A DNA stretch of 64,000 bases, from contig JAYKHY010000039.1 of assembly GCA_035285025.1 (NCBI GenBank), positions 21,018 through 85,017 of the forward strand, written 5' to 3'. Positions within the stretch are counted from its first letter, which is position 1; each line of letters opens with the position of its first letter. Source of the DNA: Vampirovibrionales bacterium (lineage in GTDB: Bacteria; Cyanobacteriota; Vampirovibrionia; Vampirovibrionales; JAJTHC01). A model generated the notes under the pieces. The model searched no databases. It was not told the origin of the DNA and saw only the letters and a list, made by a program, of their open reading frames with translations. A program made the translations under genes and the position numbers. Positions 5,402-54,595 of this stretch are shown here, in pieces.

Positions 5402-5761
5402 GAGAGACCCTAATTAAAAACTCATCTGAATAATCGAAGCTTGAGGCAAACACTAGCGCATTTCTGAGCATTTTCCTAGAATGAACTTGTGTGGCGCATC
5501 GTGTATCAAGTCGCTTAAGTTATCGATAAAGTTAAATCCCAGCCTAGTTCTCATTTGTATCATCTGTGTATTTTTGCCCCTCAGTGCCAATCCGGTACTC
5601 CTGTTAAGCGGCGGCGAGAACGTCTTTAATTGTTCAGCCTTGCCTATAACAAGTAGGATATTATGACCTACAAAATACAGTCAGGGTATGTGTTTTCCTA
5701 ACCAAAAGCGCAAGATTAACATTTTTAATAAATAGTATAGTGCTGTCTAGGGTTAAACCGC

Positions 5762-19659: not shown

Positions 19660-20631
19660 ATGACACTCAAAACAGCCTTTGTTTTTCCGGGCCAGGGGGC
19701 TCAAACCGTGGGCATGGGCGTCAGCCTGCTAGAAGCGTACCCGCAATGGGTTGAACCCATCTACGCCGTCGCCGATGCCGTTATCGGTACGCTTGAAGAT
19801 GGTCGCGCGTTTCGGCAAGCGTTTTTAAACGGCCCCGCCGACGTCTTGCAACAAACGCGCTACACGCAACCCGCGTTGCTCGCCGTCTCGCTTGCCGCCT
19901 GGCAGGTGTTTAACGCCCTAACGCAAAATCAAGTTCATCCCGTTGTAACCGCAGGCCATAGTTTGGGCGAATACGCCGCCATGGTCGCAAGCCAGGCGCT
20001 TACGACCGAAGACGTAATTAACCTGGGTAAAATCCGTGCGCAGCTCATGCATTCAGCCAAGCAGGGTGCCATGGCCGCCGTGCTTGGCCTGCCGGCCTTA
20101 AAAGTAGAACATGCCTTGCTCACGCTGGATGCCGCGCTGGGCCCTGTGGTAATTGCCAACGACAACAGCGCAGAACAGCAAGTTATTTCTGGGACGCCTA
20201 CCGCCGTGGCCGCCGCCGCAGACGTGCTTAAAGCCGCTGGGGCAAAGCGCGTGCTACCACTTCCGGTGGGTGGCGCGTTTCATTCTCCGTTAATGGCCGA
20301 GGCCGCGCTGGATTACGAAACCCTGATTAAAGGCGCAACGTTTAACACGGCAACGCCCCCCGTTATTATGAACGTGGACGCCCAGCCCACGCACGAACCC
20401 GCAGAACTGTGCCGCAAGCTGGCCTTGCAAATGCCCAGCCCAGTGCGTTGGCGAGAAACCATGCAAACCATGATTGAGACCTTGGGCGTTAACTGCGTGA
20501 TTGAATTTGGGCCCGGCAATGTGCTCACCGGGCTGGTTAAGCGCGCCTACCCCGACGTCAAACTGCTAAACGTATCCGATGCGGCTTCGGCGAAGGCCGC
20601 TGCCGAGTCGTTTTCGCTGGCGAATGTCTAG
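19660..20631 (+). CDS. fabD: Malonyl-CoA:ACP transacylase
   Basis: 323 aa, FVFPGQGAQTVGMG N-terminus, active-site GHSLGEYAA, GAFHSPLM block. Confidence 0.9.
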   Translation: MTLKTAFVFPGQGAQTVGMGVSLLEAYPQWVEPIYAVADAVIGTLEDGRAFRQAFLNGPADVLQQTRYTQPALLAVSLAAWQVFNALTQNQVHPVVTAGHSLGEYAAMVASQALTTEDVINLGKIRAQLMHSAKQGAMAAVLGLPALKVEHALLTLDAALGPVVIANDNSAEQQVISGTPTAVAAAADVLKAAGAKRVLPLPVGGAFHSPLMAEAALDYETLIKGATFNTATPPVIMNVDAQPTHEPAELCRKLALQMPSPVRWRETMQTMIETLGVNCVIEFGPGNVLTGLVKRAYPDVKLLNVSDAASAKAAAESFSLANV

Positions 20632-21700
20632 GCTATATCATCAAACCCCGCTTATCGAATCTTTGGCATTAACCCGACGTTGGCAACGCCCCGTCTGGCT
20701 CAAGCTCGAGGCATTGCAGCCCTCTGGTTCGTTTAAATTACGGGGCATTGGCCTCTTTTGCCAGCAACAGGTGTTAAATCACGGTGCACGCGGATTCGTC
20801 GCGTCTTCGGGCGGTAATGCAGGGTTAGCAGTGGCCTATGCCGCTCGGCACCTTGGCGTACCCGCTACCATATTTGTCCCGGAACAAACGCGCGAGGTGT
20901 TTTTATCTCGTTTGAATCTAGAGGGTGCAACAGTGATTAAAGCTGGTCGTGTTTGGGATGAAACCCACGCCGCAGCACTAGCCTTCTGCGATCACGCCAA
21001 CGGCAACAACAATCACGGGCAAGGTGAGCAAGGTCTGATATAGTAAATCAACTTTAGGTTAGGATGCTCTAACCTAAAGAGTACAGTTAGGGCAAGCGCT
21101 TTCCTAACCTAAAGTGCATGATTTACTTTTTTAAATAATTAACTCTATGTGCATCCGTTTGATCATCCCGTATTATGGCAAGGCCATAGCACCATGATAG
21201 ATGAATGCCTGGCGCAAGGCGTAACGCCGGCAAGTGTGCTGCTCTCGGTGGGCGGCGGCGGATTACTCTGCGGCGTTGCACAAGGGCTGCAACAAAACGC
21301 GCTACCTTTAGTACCGATTCTTGCAACCGAAACCGAAGGCGCAGCCTCGATGCACGCTGCACTGCGCGCCGGCCAGCCTGTAGCACTTGAGATGGTTCAA
21401 ACCTGTGCAAGCTCGCTGGGCGCGCGACAAGTGTGCCCGCAGGTGCTTACCGTCTCAAACCAACAAACATTGGTGCCCGTGCTGGCGCAAGATGATCAAA
21501 CGCTTGCGGCTTGTCGCTGGCTACTCGATACGCATCAGTTACTGGTCGAGCCTGCATGCGGCGCAGCACTAGCCCCCCTGGTTTGCCCAACGCCAGAACA
21601 AGCCAAACACGTCGATGCACTGCCTCACGGGCCTGTAGTTGTGATTATTTGCGGCGGCGTCGGTCTGGATGCGCAAACGCTTTTAAAGATTGATGCTTAA
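20624..21700 (+). pseudogene. PLP-dependent serine/threonine dehydratase-family gene (PALP fold) disrupted in frame by an 84-bp TIR element
   Basis: The N-terminal fragment (to 21043) carries the PLP-lysine motif SGSFKLRG and GGNAGLAVAYAA. The C-terminal fragment (from 21149) resumes at the conserved HPFDHPVLWQGHSTMIDE...VGGGGL. Both fragments are in the same frame. They are separated by 105 nt (21044-21148, spanning the 84-bp element) containing 5 stop codons. Confidence 0.7.
21043..21126. mobile_element. MITE-like insertion, family 1. Terminal inverted repeats are GTAAATCAACTTTAGGTTAGG and CCTAACCTAAAGTGCATGATTTAC.
   Basis: TIRs read directly. The element is short with no coding capacity and interrupts the dehydratase ORF. 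One TIR copy (GCAAATCAACTTTAGGTTA) recurs at 52822-52840. Confidence 0.6.
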
Positions 21701-21712
21701 AAACGCCAACGC

Positions 21713-22426
21713 TTATTCCGGGTTAAACGCATCCTGTATTTGGCAACGCATGGCCAATTGCTGATTTAAACGCACAAGCATCTGCGATTCCTGAATCAGG
21801 CGCGCCTGCGCGCTTGGCATCTCGAGTAATTGCTGGCGCAAAACCAGACTGCCTCTTAAGGTATCTGCAACCAGATATGAGAGCGCAACCGGGTCATCGA
21901 CGGGTAACACCGCAGGCAAGCACGTTTTAAAGCACTCCAGTTTACGCGCAAGCCCAATGAGCGTTTGCAATTGATCTGCCACCTGGGCGCACAACATGGG
22001 CAGCGAGGTCTCAGAAACTTCAGCCGAAAAGTCTGCCTCACGAGTCGCCTGCATCAGAGGTTCATCCTTCAACAATACGTATGCAAAGGGGCCTGCGGCG
22101 GCAGGCTGCCAAGAGACGAGTTTAAAGCGCTGTACCCCCGTGATCCCAAGTGCAGGGGCAGCATAATCCGGTTGAGCATCCGACAGCCGAAACAAACACC
22201 CCACCTCGAACGGTTCACCCAGCCCAGAACGTTCGTTGTAGGTTTTGCACAATACCGCGCCCCACTGTATCGGCGCAGCTAAAGGCTGCTGCGCGTGCGG
22301 CAGCGGCGAAAAAACATTCAGCAATCCCGTCGGCAGCATCGTCTGTACGCCCGGCAATACCACCCGATCCGGCACCAGCACCAGACGAATCAAGAAAGAC
22401 TCATCTATAGCAGTGTGTAAAGACAT
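21713..22426 (-). CDS. Lon N-terminal (LON substrate-binding/PUA-like) domain protein
   Basis: 237 aa. The N-terminal motif LIRLVLVPDRVVLPGVQTML is typical of LON_N-domain proteins (LPLFPLxxVLFPG). No ATPase or protease domain is present. Confidence 0.55.
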   Translation of the reverse strand: MSLHTAIDESFLIRLVLVPDRVVLPGVQTMLPTGLLNVFSPLPHAQQPLAAPIQWGAVLCKTYNERSGLGEPFEVGCLFRLSDAQPDYAAPALGITGVQRFKLVSWQPAAAGPFAYVLLKDEPLMQATREADFSAEVSETSLPMLCAQVADQLQTLIGLARKLECFKTCLPAVLPVDDPVALSYLVADTLRGSLVLRQQLLEMPSAQARLIQESQMLVRLNQQLAMRCQIQDAFNPE

Positions 22427-22519
22427 GGCAACCTTTACAATTACTCAGCAACTTGTTACAGCAAAAATACGCGTAGTTCACCATTACATACCAAGCACTT
22501 AACCAGCCGCTTAGGCTTT

Positions 22520-22537
22520 GCATTTAAATGCTTTTTT
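22520..22537 (+). promoter_or_regulatory. Palindromic hairpin GCATTTAAATGC plus T6 in the rpsO upstream region (attenuator/terminator-like)
   Basis: Perfect 12-nt palindrome followed by TTTTTT, 160 bp upstream of the rpsO start. There is no upstream plus-strand gene to terminate. It is a possible leader regulatory structure. Confidence 0.3.
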
Positions 22538-22697
22538 GCTAATTTAGCGATTACGCTTGAACCTTATTACAGGCTTGCGTTGGCATTTTTTATGCAATGC
22601 CTACTTTTATTCTACCTGTATTTACGTTATTTTTAAGCGTTAGCGTTTAGATTTTTTCTGGTTTACCCTTTTTCATCACGCAAGAAGACCCCTTATT

Positions 22698-22970
22698 ATG
22701 CCTCTTTCCCAAGCCCAAGTTGCCGAAACCATTGCCCAATATGGTGCCAACCCTAAAGATAGTGGTAACGAAGCCGTCCAAATCGCGCTGTTAACTGCGC
22801 GCATCAAGCATTTAACGCAACACCTTATCCAGAACAAAAAAGACCATTCTACCCGCCGTGGCTTGCTTAAAATGGTTGGCGACCGCCGCCGCAGACTGCG
22901 TTACCTTAAAACCCGCATTTCGCCCCAAGCTTACGCCGACTTGCTGGCCAAGCTCGAAATCCGTAAATAA
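22698..22970 (+). CDS. rpsO: 30S ribosomal protein S15
   Basis: 90 aa. Contains the S15 signature SGNEAVQIALLTARIKHLTQHL...KKDHSTRRGLLKMVGDRRRRLRYL. Confidence 0.9.
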   Translation: MPLSQAQVAETIAQYGANPKDSGNEAVQIALLTARIKHLTQHLIQNKKDHSTRRGLLKMVGDRRRRLRYLKTRISPQAYADLLAKLEIRK

Positions 22971-45644: not shown

Positions 45645-45782
45645 TGGTAGTGGCTTAGTCTGGTGGGTTCAATATCTCCTGAAGCGAGTGCCCTAGCTTT
45701 TTACTGGTAAAAAGCGTTTTTTCAAGCGCTTTTCAAGCGCTATCTTTAGCGCTCCCTGAACGAACCAAACTGACCCACTCCC
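45645..45782. mobile_element. MITE-like element family 2, copy A
   Basis: Right TIR CCAAACTGACCCACTCCC. The left end GGTAGTGG...GGTGGGTTCAATAT is partly degenerate. Internal motif CTGAAGCGAGTGCC and internal hairpin GCTTTTTAC-TG-GTAAAAAGC. Confidence 0.5.
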
Positions 45783-48817: not shown

Positions 48818-48908
48818 GGTAGCGGGTCAGTTTGGAGTGTGCAAGATCCTGAAGCGAGGGCCGTTCCCTCCCTCGCGCTCCCTCCCTGCGCAAAACTGAC
48901 CCGCTACC
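48818..48908. mobile_element. MITE-like element family 2, copy B, with perfect 18-bp TIRs
   Basis: The TIRs GGTAGCGGGTCAGTTTGG and CAAAACTGACCCGCTACC are exact reverse complements over 17 positions. Internal motif CTGAAGCGAGGGCCGTTCCC. Flanks GGGCGACT and GGGCGATT suggest a 6-8 bp target duplication. The element lies 15 nt from the dgt stop. Confidence 0.6.
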
Positions 48909-50719: not shown

Positions 50720-50760
50720 AATGCCTGACTTCAGGTCCTGACTTCAGGTCCTGACTTCAG
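50720..50760. repeat. Tandem repeat, 13-bp unit CCTGACTTCAGGT in three copies
   Basis: Read directly: cctgacttcaggt cctgacttcaggt cctgacttcaggg. It sits about 100 bp upstream of the cysteine desulfurase start. Confidence 0.6.
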
Positions 50761-50857
50761 GGCCCGGCATCATACGGCAACACGCCACTAACAGCCCCAA
50801 TACCTCAATCGTAAACTGCTGATAAGCATTGCTCCAGATTCGCGCTACGATAAACCC

Positions 50858-52087
50858 ATGGGCATATACCTAGACCACGCAGCAACAACCCCCATGGCGC
50901 CAGAAGTTCTGGCGGCGATGACGCCATATTTAACGCAAGACGCCTTTGCAAACCCCAACAGTTTGCATAGCAGTGGCGTGCGCGCAAAACAGGGGTTGAT
51001 TGAGGCCCAGAAAACCGTGGCCGAATGCCTGAATACCACACCCGAGACGCTCATTTGGACCAGCGGCGGCACAGAAAGTAACAATCTGGCGTTATTTGGC
51101 GTGGCCGAAACGCTTGCGACCGCCTTTCAACGCGAATGCGCAGCCGAAACGCCCGGTACACTCATTACCAGCCCAACAGAACATAGCGCCGTGCTGGCAC
51201 CAGCAAAAGTGTTATCGCAACAATACGGTTGGGCGCTGCATTACGTTAAACTCGATTCCGAGGGCTTAATCAATCTGGATCATCTGGCGCAATTGCTGGC
51301 CAATGCGCCCGAAAACGCACCAATATTGGTGAGCCTGATGCACGGTAATAACGAAGCCGGCACGTTGCAACCCCTTGCGGCCATTGGCGAGCTTTGCCGC
51401 CGTTACCGCGCAAAATTCCATACCGATGCCGTGCAAACACTCGGTAAGCTGCCACTGGATTTATCCACGTTGCAAATCGATTATTTATCAGGCTCGGGGC
51501 ATAAATTATACGGGCCTAAAGGCATTGGACTGCTTTGGGTGCACCCCGAGGCCCCCAAGCCGTCGCCGCTGCTTTTTGGTGGAGATCAGCAAGGTGGGCT
51601 GCGGCCTGGCACCATTAACGTCGCGGGCTGCGTTGGGTTTGCCCAGGCCCTTACGCTTTACCGCCAGACGATGCAGGCCGAAACAAACCGGCTACAAAGC
51701 CTGCAGCAATATTTGCTAGACGCACTTTCCAACGCTTTTGGAGCAGGCTTTAATCTGAATATGCACACGGAACAGGCGCAAACGCCCGCCATTTGGCTGA
51801 ACGGCCCAGCCGATGTGCGCGCCCGGATTCCGGGGAATATTCATTTAAGTTACAGCAAGCCGCTGGCGGCAGAAGCGTTACTACTGAGGCTGGATTTGGC
51901 AGGCTTTTACGTTTCGAGCGGTTCGGCGTGTCATAGCGGCCGCATAGAGCCATCGCACGTGATACGCGCAATGTTTCCAGACAATCTGGCGCGCGCAGCG
52001 CAAACCGTGCGGATTACCATGGGCCGCAGCACCACAGCAGCTGATCTTGACGCCTTTGTGCAAGCCTTTAAACAGATTCTGGATTAA
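50858..52087 (+). CDS. Cysteine desulfurase (IscS/NifS family, class V aminotransferase)
   Basis: 409 aa. PLP-lysine block SGSGHKLYGPKGIGLL and active-site Cys loop SSGSACHSG. Confidence 0.85.
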   Translation: MGIYLDHAATTPMAPEVLAAMTPYLTQDAFANPNSLHSSGVRAKQGLIEAQKTVAECLNTTPETLIWTSGGTESNNLALFGVAETLATAFQRECAAETPGTLITSPTEHSAVLAPAKVLSQQYGWALHYVKLDSEGLINLDHLAQLLANAPENAPILVSLMHGNNEAGTLQPLAAIGELCRRYRAKFHTDAVQTLGKLPLDLSTLQIDYLSGSGHKLYGPKGIGLLWVHPEAPKPSPLLFGGDQQGGLRPGTINVAGCVGFAQALTLYRQTMQAETNRLQSLQQYLLDALSNAFGAGFNLNMHTEQAQTPAIWLNGPADVRARIPGNIHLSYSKPLAAEALLLRLDLAGFYVSSGSACHSGRIEPSHVIRAMFPDNLARAAQTVRITMGRSTTAADLDAFVQAFKQILD

Positions 52088-52300: not shown

Positions 52301-52674
52301 GCGTCTTGATCGGGCGTGGCATCAGGAGAGGTTTCTGACGTTTCGGCGGCGGCGCTACGTTTTTTACTGGGCAGTTGTGGCAAAGCCTGATTGTCGGGCG
52401 CCATGTTGCTTGCACCCGCAGCTTGGCTTGCAAGAGGAACCGTCGGCCGTACCAAAGGCGCTTTACGCCGGGCAGGTTTGGGGTGCGTTAAAATCATGCC
52501 GATTAAACGGCCAATCAGGCCCATAATCAGAGCGGCCCCCACGCCAATCGCCAGCGATTTTAGCAGGTCGTAGTGCATGGTGGGGTCTAGCGCCTGAGTA
52601 AAAAACGGCGGTAACACCACCGCCATAAATGCGGCGCTGGCAAACCCGAGCGATAATTTTCCTGCAAGCTTCAT
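52282..52674 (-). CDS. Hypothetical small membrane protein
   Basis: Two predicted TM helices and a Pro/Ala/Ser-rich C-terminal tail. The start is taken at MKLAGK (52674). Confidence 0.35.
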   Translation of the reverse strand: MKLAGKLSLGFASAAFMAVVLPPFFTQALDPTMHYDLLKSLAIGVGAALIMGLIGRLIGMILTHPKPARRKAPLVRPTVPLASQAAGASNMAPDNQALPQLPSKKRSAAAETSETSPDATPDQDAKNEAP

Positions 52675-52821
52675 GCCAATTCCAATAACACAATTCCAAA
52701 AAGCATTTGAGCGCAAATAGCAAACACCGTTTAGACCCGAAGGCTAGCGCGTCAAAACAATCCATTCAACGCCCTATTATTCTCTGCGCGCCTGACAGCG
52801 CATAAACGTTTGCTTATTATA

Positions 52822-52968
52822 GCAAATCAACTTTAGGTTAAAACAGAATGCTTGTTTAGGTGGTGGGTATAGGTGATGGGTCAATTTGGCAGGCATAACA
52901 GCCTGAACTGAGGACTGAAGCGAGAACCGTTCCCGTGCACATTATCCCTGAAGCAAACTGACTTATTA
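52822..52968. mobile_element. Composite repeat: a family-1 TIR fragment (GCAAATCAACTTTAGGTTA) joined to a family-2 MITE-like copy D
   Basis: 52822-52840 matches the family-1 TIR. 52873-52889 GGTGATGGGTCAATTTGG and 52953-52968 GCAAACTGACTTATTA are family-2 TIR-like. The internal motif CTGAAGCGAGAACCGTTCCC is shared with copy B. Confidence 0.45.
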
Positions 52969-53004
52969 TCTTTTTTTTACTGGCTAAAGTGATTGATTCG
53001 CTTG

Positions 53005-54168
53005 CTAAGTTTGTTCAAAAGGCGAGCGCGGCTGTTTCTGTAAATCCGCGATAATGGCATGATTTGCCTTGGGGAAGGCGTAATCGGCAAGCTCGGCAAC
53101 CGTGACCCACTTAAGTTGCTGTGCCGCGTGCGGCTGGGGCTCGTCCGAACTGTACTTGCAATAAAGGCAATGGTAGGCGTGCAGGGTAATTTTAAAATGC
53201 GTAAACGCGTGCTTCACCACCCGGATTTTTTCGCCAATTAGCGGCGCAATGCCCAGCTCTTCGTGCAATTCTCGGGCGAGGGCTTGTTCCAAGGTTTCAT
53301 CGGGGTGCTGCTTACCGCCGGGAAACTCCCATAAGCCTGCGAGTAAACCTTTTTCGGGGCGCTGCTGAATCAGAATCCGGTGGTCAGCATCCCAGATGAC
53401 GCCGGCTGCGATAGCGTAATGCGGCACCGCTGGCTTTTTAACCGAGTAAGGGCACTCTTGCTGCGTGCCGCGTTGCCGCGAGAGACACGATTGCGCAACG
53501 GGACACACCAGACAGCGCGGCTGCTTGGGCAGGCATACCGTTGCGCCAAGCTCCATAAGCGCCTGATTAAGCGCGTTGGGGTCTTTCGCGGCGGAAACTA
53601 CCGCCTGAGACGTTGCCCAGAGGCGGGCTTCGGTTTGGGCGGGTGGGCGAGGGTCATCCAGCCAGCGAGACAGCACGCGTTTTACGTTACCATCCAGGAT
53701 GGGCGCGCGAAGCCCCAGCGTAAAACACGCGATTGCGCCAGCGGTGCTTTTGCCCACGCCGGGCAGGGCGTGCCAGCCTTCGACGGAGTCCGGGAAGGCG
53801 CCGCTTTGGGCAATTATGGTTGCGGCTTTATGCAAATTACGCGCGCGACTGTAATAGCCGAGGCCCTCCCAGTGTTTTAAAACTTCATCGAGCGGCGCGG
53901 CGGCAAGCACTTGCACAGACGGGAAGCGTTGCAAAAAACGATGATAAAACGGCAGCACGGTATTCACCTGCGTTTGCTGGAGCATAACCTCGGAGAGCCA
54001 AATGCGGTAAGGATCGTGAATGCCGCGCCAGGGTAAATCTCGGGCGACGGTGTAGTACCACGCAGTTAAATGCTCGGCGAACCAGGCGGCATCCAGGTCA
54101 TCAAGCGTTTCTGCCTGATTTTGAGTGAACTGCTCAGCATCCGAATTTTGTTGAATCATGGCATCCAT
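53005..54168 (-). CDS. mutY: A/G-specific adenine DNA glycosylase MutY with C-terminal NUDIX-like domain
   Basis: Start at MDAMIQQ (54168). HhH-GPD block LPGVGKSTAGAI, 4Fe-4S cluster loop CxxxxxxCxxCxxxxxC (CLPKQPRCLVCPVAQSC) and the C-terminal MutT-like GLWEFPGGK. Confidence 0.8.
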   Translation of the reverse strand: MDAMIQQNSDAEQFTQNQAETLDDLDAAWFAEHLTAWYYTVARDLPWRGIHDPYRIWLSEVMLQQTQVNTVLPFYHRFLQRFPSVQVLAAAPLDEVLKHWEGLGYYSRARNLHKAATIIAQSGAFPDSVEGWHALPGVGKSTAGAIACFTLGLRAPILDGNVKRVLSRWLDDPRPPAQTEARLWATSQAVVSAAKDPNALNQALMELGATVCLPKQPRCLVCPVAQSCLSRQRGTQQECPYSVKKPAVPHYAIAAGVIWDADHRILIQQRPEKGLLAGLWEFPGGKQHPDETLEQALARELHEELGIAPLIGEKIRVVKHAFTHFKITLHAYHCLYCKYSSDEPQPHAAQQLKWVTVAELADYAFPKANHAIIADLQKQPRSPFEQT

Positions 54169-54595
54169 CAAGGCAAGCAATCTTGTCCGCAGGTTTTTAA
54201 AAGGGCAAAAAAACAAAAAACGCGGACAGTAAAATCGTGTTTATGCTTCGCCTATGCTAACGCATCACGGCGGCGGACTAAAGCATTTGAGCAAGTTAAT
54301 TTTTTTTGTGATTTCTAGTTTTAAAGATGCTCGAGCGCAGCAACGGCCCTCGCTTCAAGTGAATTAATCATTTAAAGCGAGCACGCTTAGGCGTTTTACG
54401 GTGATTTTTGGGAGCAATTATTCCGTGACTTACAGCATGCCAAATTTTTGTCAGGCAGAGCAAACAGTTCAGAGCCCTTAGGGTAAGATGTAGATACAAA
54501 ATTACTTTTATTGCCTATAAAGCCTGTTCAAACGTTTAATTCAAACGTGCGTTGGCTCTGGTGCAAGCGCGATATGGATTTGCTATAACCCTATT

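What the first reader, a model, noticed from the sequence alone, without database searches (positions are those of the whole stretch)
20624..21700. PLP-dependent serine/threonine dehydratase gene split in frame by an 84-bp inverted-repeat element
The two ORF halves share a reading frame. Between them lie 105 nt containing five stop codons. These 105 nt span an 84-bp element with 20-bp terminal inverted repeats (GTAAATCAACTTTAGGTTAGG / CCTAACCTAAAGTGCATGATTTAC). The split falls between the conserved GGNAGLAVAYAA region and the HPFDHP block of the PALP fold. This is therefore a recent insertional inactivation, or a split gene, not a pair of genes. One TIR copy recurs at 52822-52840, so the element is repetitive.
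Basis: seen in the sequence. Interest (0 to 1): 0.6.

Follow-up and report, generated by a model that had tools for sequence, protein, structure and literature searches.

The report
Small palindromic repeat splits dehydratase gene
A roughly 106-base mobile-looking palindromic repeat has landed inside a serine/threonine dehydratase gene of an uncultured Vampirovibrionales bacterium and cut it into two open reading frames; this is an ordinary kind of gene disruption caused by a repeat family not described before.

Summary
A PLP-dependent (SDS-type) L-serine/threonine dehydratase gene is cut into a 139-codon N-half (20624-21043) and a C-half (open from 21143; annotated GTG start at 21149). Both halves are in the same frame.

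The intervening AT-rich segment (32% GC, against 54-57% in the halves) is closed in all six frames. It carries a 21/24-nt inverted repeat that folds at -38.7 kcal/mol (z = -6.6) and is followed by T6.

- **Repeat family.** The segment belongs to a dispersed family with four copies in the window. One copy has a second, unrelated palindromic repeat nested inside it.
- **State of the gene.** All 120 best homologues are single 301-380 aa proteins. The repaired protein scores like intact homologues, keeps all 56 invariant positions and folds confidently. The insertion lies in its only poorly modelled loop.
- **Source.** The window comes from a Vampirovibrionales MAG. NCBI annotates the halves as two separate CDS.

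My best reading is a fairly recent insertion of a MITE-like, terminator-like element that truncates the enzyme. Whether two fragments are still made and reassemble is untested. The exact ends, any target duplication and the transposase are unresolved. This is a new member of a known kind and of low interest.

The parts
19660..20631 (+). fabD (malonyl-CoA-ACP transacylase). Its stop overlaps the start of the dehydratase gene (ATGTCTAG), so the two are probably co-transcribed.
   Evidence: Pfam Acyl_transf_1.
20624..21043 (+). N-half of the SDS-type L-serine/threonine dehydratase (139 codons plus TAG). It holds the Schiff-base lysine motif GSFKLRG and the SSGGNAG loop. NCBI annotates it as MEB3245376.1.
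   Evidence: Pfam PALP 3-122, E 1.6e-30; alignments; annotation.
21036..21142 (+). Inserted family-1 palindromic repeat (copy c21k). Positions 21036-21137 are shared with copy c61k. The insert must reach at least 21142 (TAA at 21140-42) for the frame to be repairable. The simplest repair removes 108 nt, flanked by CT at 21035-36 and 21143-44.
   Evidence: GC is 32% against 54-57% in the halves, and all six frames are closed.
21043..21063 (+). Left arm of the inverted repeat, GTAAATCAACTTTAGGTTAGG.
21069..21079 (+). Internal copy of CTAACCTAAAG. It can pair with the left arm (21052-21062) as an alternative 11-bp hairpin.
   Evidence: D1, I2.
21103..21126 (+). Right arm of the inverted repeat, CCTAACCTAAAGTGCATGATTTAC, with a 3-nt bulge (TGC) relative to the left arm.
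21127..21132 (+). T6 tract directly after the long hairpin. Hairpin plus T-tract has the form of an intrinsic terminator on the gene's strand.
   Evidence: Sequence; fold.
21143..21700 (+). C-half of the dehydratase (LYVHPFDHP... to the stop). It holds the GGGG phosphate loop and the EPACGAA and CGG motifs. NCBI starts it at GTG 21149 (MEB3245377.1, 183 aa). The Logan gene call starts it at ATG 21194.
   Evidence: Pfam PALP 132-295, E 7.7e-27.
61633..61741 (-). Family-1 copy c61k, 82% identical to c21k. It is intergenic, 117 nt after the stop of a 420-aa gene and 16 nt before the aroA start. It points the same way as both genes.
5630..5734 (+). Family-1 copy c5k, 77% identical to c21k, with a decayed left arm. 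It is intergenic, between rsmD (-) and a 185-aa ORF (+).
52816..53003 (+). Family-1 copy c52k. Its left end is TATAGCAAATCAACTTTAGGTTA and its right arm is CTAAAGTGATTGATTCGCT, with the same 3-nt bulge. A family-2 repeat is nested at 52872-52969. It lies between mutY and the next gene.
   Evidence: The relative has only 18 nt at this spacer.

Best explanation
A non-autonomous, MITE-like palindromic repeat inserted into the loop-coding part of a single-copy SDS-type L-serine/threonine dehydratase gene. The insert is about 106 nt, or 108 nt if a possible CT duplication is counted. The gene lies downstream of fabD in a Vampirovibrionales genome.

**Shown**
- The element brings stop codons in every frame. 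TGA, TAG/TAA and TAG cover all three forward frames within its first 22 nt.
- Translation from the fabD-coupled start therefore ends at TAG 21041, after 139 codons.

**Inferred**
- The 22-bp hairpin plus U6 probably terminates or destabilises the transcript, which would leave the C-half poorly expressed.
- The catalytic lysine is on the N-half and the PLP-phosphate glycine loop is on the C-half. Neither fragment can therefore be active alone, and the enzyme is most likely lost.
- The insertion is probably recent, because both halves are still undecayed.
- The in-frame relation of the two halves is incidental. It is a 1-in-3 outcome of the insert's length.
For: - **One gene in two pieces.** Pfam PALP positions 3-122 and 132-295. 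The joined protein aligns end to end with PDB 4h27 and 1pwe. All top-120 homologues are single proteins of 301-380 aa.
- **Foreign insert.** 32% GC against 54-57%, and all six frames closed.
- **Repeat family.** Four copies in 64 kb, at 74-82% identity among the three uninterrupted copies, and none expected by chance.
- **Hairpin.** -38.7 kcal/mol, z = -6.6, followed by T6.
- **Arm complementarity is maintained across copies.** T-A in c21k becomes G-C in c61k. By my own reading of the sequences, T-A also becomes C-G in c52k.
- **Signs of mobility.** One copy has another repeat family nested in it. The orthologous mutY spacer of a related MAG is 18 nt, against about 330 nt here.
- **Recency.** All 56 invariant columns are kept. 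The NF006094 score is 208.5 bits against 194-219 for intact homologues. The repaired protein folds at pLDDT 92.8, and the insertion site lies in the only weak stretch, residues 121-140.
- **Known precedent.** MITE insertions that inactivate genes, and terminator-like MITEs, are established (review PMC10969869).
Against: - No target-site duplication could be established. A TA duplication, as in Correia or IS630-type elements, does not restore the frame if the ends are those shared with c61k.
- No transposase or cognate IS lies in the window.
- No copy was found outside this genome, whether in genome, metagenome or viral collections or in plasmids. The exact-pattern scans were stringent, and this genome itself is not in those collections.
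- The Logan k-mer assembly runs straight through the element. This suggests that no near-identical sister copy exists in that sample, which is unexpected for a very recent copy-and-paste event (inference).
- Loss of function is not shown. Most genes here lack a Shine-Dalgarno sequence and start after AT-rich leaders like the element's tail, so the C-half could be translated.
- No read-level data are available.
Confidence: 0.62

Rival explanations
1. Functional split gene. The insertion converted the dehydratase into two separately translated polypeptides: the N-half of 139 aa, and the C-half from GTG 21149. These reassemble non-covalently. The element supplies the stop, an AT-rich initiation region and perhaps its own promoter.
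For: - Both halves are completely undecayed.
- The cut lies in the only disordered loop of a confidently folded model, at the end of helix 111-125.
- GTG 21149 sits exactly at the first conserved residue block, 11 nt after the element's tail.
- Genes in this genome generally lack a Shine-Dalgarno sequence and follow AT-rich leaders.
- Copy c61k ends 16 nt before the aroA start, and c5k ends about 27 nt before an ORF start, both in the same orientation.
- The left ends of c21k and c61k read TGATATAGT, which resembles an extended -10. A transcript starting just after it would lack the base of the terminator stem.
- NCBI annotates two CDS.
Against: - The hairpin plus U6 would stop transcripts coming from fabD.
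- No sigma-70-type promoter was found by the scan.
- None of the 120 closest homologues is split.
- Intact halves are equally expected shortly after any insertion.
- GTG with no ribosome-binding signal is a weak start.
- There are no expression data.
Confidence: 0.22
2. The repeat is primarily a host regulatory module rather than a transposon, for example a portable terminator/promoter or a small structured RNA. Its presence in the gene would reflect recombination rather than transposition.
For: - Hairpin plus T-tract.
- The central motif CAGnnAGGGnAnGnGnTTT is conserved across three copies.
- Complementarity between the arms is maintained.
- Two intergenic copies sit just upstream of start codons, in the gene's orientation.
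- Sequences resembling an extended -10 lie at three left ends.
Against: - No Rfam family matches.
- The flanking genes (aroA, a hypothetical ORF, mutY, the dehydratase) share no function.
- One copy points the other way relative to its neighbours, and one has lost an arm.
- The element is absent from 26 kb of the nearest relative.
- A position inside a coding sequence is hard to explain without mobility.
Confidence: 0.08
3. Assembly artefact or minority variant. The insert is not present in most cells of the population.
For: The source is a metagenome-assembled genome and no reads could be inspected. The two assemblies that agree may share the same reads.
Against: - The insert, about 106 nt, is shorter than a typical read (my assumption; the read length of SRR13425446 was not checked), so single reads would span both junctions.
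- The Logan and NCBI contigs are identical across it.
- The sequence is a diverged member of a family present at three other sites, not a copy pasted from elsewhere in the window.
Confidence: 0.04
4. Recoding. Ribosomes bypass the insert (T4 gene 60-type hopping), or the RNA is processed, so that a full-length enzyme is still made.
For: A stop codon sits directly at the foot of a strong hairpin, which superficially resembles the gene 60 take-off site.
Against: - The codon before the stop is AUA. No AUN codon lies in frame after the last stop (21140). The AUA at 21136-38 is out of frame (sequence).
- Five in-frame stops exclude readthrough.
- There is no intron-like or intein-like feature, and no Rfam hit.
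Confidence: 0.02

Closest known systems
Correia repeat-enclosed elements (CREE / nemis) of Neisseria
   Same: - Small palindromic non-coding repeats of similar size (104-108 or 153-157 bp; PMC2649163).
- Terminal inverted repeats that form an mRNA hairpin.
- Ends that begin TATAG. Ours reads TATAGTAAATCAAC against TATAG[CT]GGATTAAC, 11 of 14 by my own comparison of the two sequences.
- Sequences resembling -10 boxes at the termini.
- Often found just 5' of genes, and sometimes disrupting coding sequences.
   Different: - The published CREE search patterns fail at up to 3 mismatches.
- The host is a different phylum.
- A TA target duplication is not supported here.
- The right end carries a T6-AAATA tail that has no counterpart in the left end.
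[quoted passage not shown]
   Same: A dispersed small repeat whose transcript forms a stable hairpin followed by a U-tract (PMC10969869).
   Different: I have no evidence of sequence relatedness, which was not tested. The host is different. Termination has not been tested here. One copy (c52k) lacks the T-tract.
Rickettsia palindromic elements (RPE)
   Same: A palindromic repeat of about 100-150 bp inserted inside a protein-coding gene, at a surface loop, with a length that keeps the downstream frame.
   Different: RPEs are open in frame and are translated as part of the host protein. This element is closed in all six frames, so it truncates the protein.
Cyanobacterial MITEs that inactivate genes (for example mcy genes of Anabaena)
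   Same: Insertional disruption of a metabolic gene by a MITE in the cyanobacterial lineage (PMC10969869).
   Different: This is a different element family, and the host is a non-photosynthetic Vampirovibrionales. No phenotype is known.
REPIN / REP doublets mobilised by RAYT transposases
   Same: A hairpin-forming doublet of about 100 nt made of inverted short repeats, with arm complementarity preserved between diverged copies.
   Different: REPINs are extragenic. No RAYT gene is in the window. I saw no conserved GTAG head. The arms are AT-rich.

Membership tests
MITE (miniature inverted-repeat transposable element) | Small (50-800 bp) and non-coding | tested here: met
   About 102-108 nt, with all six frames closed.
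MITE (miniature inverted-repeat transposable element) | Terminal inverted repeats | tested here: met
   21/24-nt arms in c21k. They are also recognisable in c61k and c52k, with the same 3-nt bulge. The inverted repeat is subterminal on the right, where a T6-AAATA tail follows it.
MITE (miniature inverted-repeat transposable element) | Multiple dispersed copies in the genome | tested here: met
   Four copies in 64 kb. The genome-wide number is unknown.
MITE (miniature inverted-repeat transposable element) | Target-site duplication | tested here: inconclusive
   The only frame-restoring direct repeat is CT/CT (21035-36 and 21143-44). It is not seen at the other, decayed copies. TA does not fit.
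MITE (miniature inverted-repeat transposable element) | Cognate autonomous IS / transposase with matching ends | tested here: not met
   No transposase in the window. The rest of the genome could not be searched.
MITE (miniature inverted-repeat transposable element) | Presence/absence at orthologous sites | tested here: met
   Every homologue of the dehydratase is uninterrupted. The relative's mutY spacer is 18 nt against about 330 nt here. The resolution is coarse, because the relative is distant.
Correia element (CREE) | Match to the published CR terminal patterns at up to 3 mismatches (PMC2649163) | tested here: not met
   No matches for the two of the four patterns that I tested.
Rickettsia palindromic element type (in-frame translated insert) | Open reading frame continuous through the element | tested here: not met
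   Five in-frame stops.
Intrinsic (rho-independent) terminator-like element | Stable hairpin immediately followed by a U-tract on the transcribed strand | tested here: met
   c21k folds at -38.7 kcal/mol and is followed by U6. c61k keeps only the outer stem (z = -1). c5k has lost an arm. c52k has no tail. Function was not tested.
Programmed translational bypass (T4 gene 60 type) | Matching take-off and landing codons that restore the downstream frame | tested here: not met
   The take-off codon would be AUA (21038-40). No in-frame AUN lies after 21142.
Known RNA families (Rfam 15) | Score at or above a family's gathering threshold | tested here: not met
   No hit in the window. The best sub-threshold E-value is 0.7.
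SDS-type PLP fold-type II L-serine/threonine dehydratase (the interrupted gene) | PALP domain with the Schiff-base Lys (SFK), the GGGG phosphate loop and full-length similarity to solved L-serine dehydratases | tested here: met
   The NF006094 score of 208.5 bits is below that model's cut-off of 331, as it is for the intact homologues (194-219). The substrate (Ser or Thr) was not determined.

The most novel reading that the evidence does not exclude
The repeat acts as a portable 'stop, terminate, restart' cassette. It ends translation in all frames and terminates incoming transcription with its full hairpin plus U-tract. It then launches a new transcript from its own TGnTATAGT box; that transcript lacks the base of the stem and so reads on into the next ORF. 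In the dehydratase, this would produce a working two-piece enzyme cut in a disordered loop. The same design would explain why other copies sit just upstream of start codons.
Probability: 0.1. Interest if true: 0.55.

Novelty: new member of a known kind. Interest (0 to 1): 0.25.

Why it matters
**Annotation.** The two 'pyridoxal-phosphate dependent enzyme' CDS in the public record (MEB3245376.1 and MEB3245377.1) are halves of one interrupted gene. They should not be counted as two enzymes, or as a working serine/threonine dehydratase, in metabolic reconstructions of this Vampirovibrionales lineage.

**Genome biology.** The window shows that this poorly known, uncultured group carries at least two families of small palindromic repeats, one nested in the other. 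I found no description of small repeats in this group in two targeted literature checks.

**If the two halves still work.** That would be a natural example of a PLP fold-type II enzyme tolerating a backbone break, and of a mobile element that insulates and restarts expression. Nothing here shows that.

Tried and rejected
**Searches for copies elsewhere**
- An exact gapped-pattern scan for the element in genome contigs found nothing.
- The same scan in metagenome contigs gave one hit, L002. It is an AT-rich chance match with an unrelated interior.
- Two viral-contig scans found nothing.
- blastn against plasmids found nothing.

**Searches for relatives and context**
- The search for related loci with fabD in genome contigs found no relative. 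This genome and its close kin are therefore not among the GTDB representatives held.
- No close orthologue of the dehydratase exists. The best, P0001, is 56% identical, and its contig DNA could not be fetched. The native junction therefore could not be read off an alignment.
- Extending the window through Logan contigs added only 6.8 kb and no new copy.
- 26 kb from the nearest relative holds no copy.

**Ideas tested and dropped**
- Rfam gave nothing.
- The sigma-70 promoter scan found nothing in or next to the element.
- TA target-duplication model. The only TA pair that restores an open frame would put the element's right end 10 nt beyond the last base shared with c61k, and its left end inside the shared TGATATAG. 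I rejected it.
- Gene 60-like bypass. There is no in-frame landing codon, so I rejected it.
- The long aroA (503 aa) as a second in-frame repeat insertion. Its roughly 55-aa acidic insert has normal GC, and the relative's aroA is of similar length (492 aa), so I rejected this.
- Literature searches for the run accession and for MITEs in Melainabacteria found nothing specific.
Full report
**1. What is in the sequence.**

fabD (19660-20631) ends inside ATGTCTAG. The ATG at 20624 opens an ORF of 139 codons that stops at TAG 21041-43. A second ORF in the same frame is open from 21143 and runs to 21700. The first start codon in it is GTG 21149.

In-frame stops lie at 21041, 21044, 21110, 21119 and 21140. 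The segment 21030-21150 is closed in all six frames. It has 32% GC, against 54% and 57% in the two halves.

The N-half matches Pfam PALP positions 3-122, and the C-half matches positions 132-295.

- The arms are at 21043-21063 and 21103-21126, matching over 8 + 14 perfect pairs with a 3-nt bulge.
- An inner copy of CTAACCTAAAG (21069-79) can pair with the left arm instead.
- As RNA the segment folds at -38.7 kcal/mol. Shuffles give -18.4 +/- 3.1, so z = -6.6 and none of 200 shuffles folds as well.
- The hairpin is followed directly by T6 (21127-32).

**2. The two ORFs are one gene.**

Joined as ...GEQG-LYVHPFDHP..., the protein aligns end to end with human and rat L-serine dehydratase (4h27, 1pwe, 1p5j; E about 4e-67).

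It also finds 7754 homologues. The 120 best are all single proteins of 301-380 aa, so no relative carries a two-gene arrangement. The junction falls in an indel-rich loop just before the YVHPFDHP block.

The repaired gene shows no sign of decay:
- In a 36-sequence alignment it keeps all 56 invariant columns. These include the SFK lysine (N-half) and the GGGG loop (C-half).
- It scores 208.5 bits on NCBIfam NF006094, inside the 194-219 range of five intact homologues.
- AlphaFold2 models it at mean pLDDT 92.8 and pTM 0.91. The only weak stretch is residues 121-140, the coil that holds the insertion site.

**3. The insert belongs to a dispersed repeat family.**

Pattern searches, alignment and an nhmmer profile find further copies:
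- 61633-61741 on the - strand, 82% identical to the copy in the gene.
- About 5630-5734 on the + strand, 77% identical, with a decayed left arm.
- 52816-53003 on the + strand.

Because TAA 21140-42 is in frame, the inserted DNA must reach at least 21142.

The simplest repair removes 108 nt bounded by CT/CT (21035-36 and 21143-44). That gives ...QGLYVHPF.... It is an inference, not a demonstrated target duplication.

The copy at 52.8 kb looked like a lone left end. A whole-window repeat search then showed a second, unrelated palindromic family:
- Its termini are GGTAGYGGGTCAGTTTG...CAAACTGACCCRCTACC.
- It has five copies in the window.
- One of them, 52872-52969, is nested inside the family-1 copy.
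- With it removed, a family-1 element of about 91 nt remains. It has the family's central GGGTAT..TTTT motif and a right arm with the same 3-nt bulge.

Complementarity between the arms is kept through changes on both sides. T-A becomes G-C in c61k. T-A becomes C-G in c52k (read).

**4. Source and relatives.**

ClpB and aroA from the window are 100% identical to proteins of a Vampirovibrionales MAG on an 87,273-bp NCBI contig. The next relative, GCA_035285385.1, is 75% (ClpB) and 65% (aroA) identical.

NCBI annotates the two halves as separate CDS, MEB3245376.1 (139 aa) and MEB3245377.1 (183 aa).

A Logan assembly of SRR13425446 reproduces 19533-22794 exactly, insert included.

In the relative, the mutY stop and the next gene's start are 18 nt apart. 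In the window they are about 330 nt apart, and that spacer holds the nested repeats. This is a coarse 'empty site'. No family-1 copy occurs in 26 kb of the relative.

Neither the genome, metagenome and viral collections nor the plasmid set hold a true copy. The window contains only housekeeping genes and no transposase.

**5. How it most likely works.**

*Shown:* translation of the dehydratase stops at TAG 21041, at the first in-frame codon wholly within the sequence shared with copy c61k. The catalytic lysine and the PLP-phosphate loop end up on different fragments.

*Inferred:* the long hairpin plus U6 on the sense strand acts as a terminator, or as an RNase target, for transcripts coming from fabD. 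The C-half would then be poorly expressed and the enzyme lost.

The undecayed halves and the near-perfect arms point to a recent event. The shared frame is a 1-in-3 accident of insert length.

**6. Rivals.**

*A functional two-piece enzyme cannot be excluded.*
- The cut is in a disordered loop.
- GTG 21149 sits at the first conserved block.
- Most genes here lack a Shine-Dalgarno sequence and follow AT-rich leaders like the element's tail.
- Two other copies end 16 and about 27 nt before start codons, in the gene's orientation.
- The left ends of c21k and c61k read TGATATAGT, which resembles an extended -10. A transcript started there would lack the base of the terminator stem.
- Against this reading, no sigma-70-type promoter was found, and no split homologue exists.

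*Other rivals.*
- Bypass or readthrough is rejected, because there is no in-frame landing codon and there are five stops.
- A purely regulatory, non-mobile element fits poorly with a position inside a gene and with mixed orientations.
- An assembly artefact is unlikely for an insert of about 106 nt, shorter than a typical read (read length not checked here), but no reads were seen.

**7. Comparison with known systems.**

The element behaves like a bacterial MITE. Its closest analogues:
- **Correia elements:** similar size classes, TATAG-type termini, an mRNA hairpin, promoter-like ends, frequent placement 5' of genes and occasional gene disruption (PMC2649163).
- **SPRITE:** a terminator-like MITE (PMC10969869).

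It is not a Correia element by the published patterns. It is not RPE-like, because it is not translatable. It matches no Rfam family.

Target duplication and the mobilising enzyme remain unknown, so the transposon superfamily cannot be assigned.

**8. Verdict.**

The biology is ordinary: gene disruption by a small repeat. The repeat family is undescribed, as is a second family nested in one of its copies, and the host group is little studied. This is a new member of a known kind, with interest about 0.25.

Noticed in passing
window 45674-45730, 48818-48905, 52872-52969, 54300-54360 (-), 63253-63335 (-): A second dispersed palindromic repeat family, about 90-110 nt. Its termini are GGTAGYGGGTCAGTTTG ... 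CAAACTGACCCRCTACC and its core is TCCTGAAGCGAGGGCCGT. All copies are intergenic, and one is nested inside the family-1 copy at 52.8 kb.
   Followed up: partly
window 52674-53007, compared with L006 13829-13848: The spacer from the mutY stop to the next gene's start is about 330 nt here and 18 nt in the related MAG GCA_035285385.1. The downstream ORF's true start is probably ATG 52674, not the TTG at 52716 listed mechanically.
   Followed up: partly
window 21036-21044 (+), 61733-61741 (-), 52816-52824 (-): The motif TGNTATART, which resembles an extended -10, occurs six times in the window against 2.3 expected. Three of these are at family-1 left ends. The one at 52.8 kb is a perfect TGCTATAAT pointing outward, toward the downstream gene.
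   Followed up: partly
window 60105-61616 (-): aroA is 503 aa. It carries an acidic insert of about 55 aa (…EAEWPTREDGDYDDFDDEHGEASQ…) with normal GC. The relative's aroA is of similar length (492 aa), so the extra length is probably lineage-specific rather than a repeat insertion.
   Followed up: partly
window-wide: 40 nt upstream of about 50 start codons: Almost no gene has a Shine-Dalgarno sequence. Upstream regions are AT-rich instead (for example ttaaact, tttaaagaac).
   Followed up: no
window 20985-21035: The dehydratase loop next to the insertion (NGNNNHGQGEQG) is about 9 residues longer than in every homologue, including the closest one (P0001: CHENPSAAYVHPFD). Its origin is unknown.
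   Followed up: no
window 50724-50772: A short tandem array of three 13-nt units, CCTGACTTCAGGT, upstream of the class-V aminotransferase gene (50858-52087).
   Followed up: no
window 19660-21043: fabD is followed directly, with overlapping stop and start, by the dehydratase gene rather than by fabG or acpP. This is an unusual neighbour for a fab gene.
   Followed up: no
L003 301-771 and 15158-17007 (beyond the left end of the window): Genes for a flagellar rod protein, flagellin and FliH lie next to the window.
   Followed up: no
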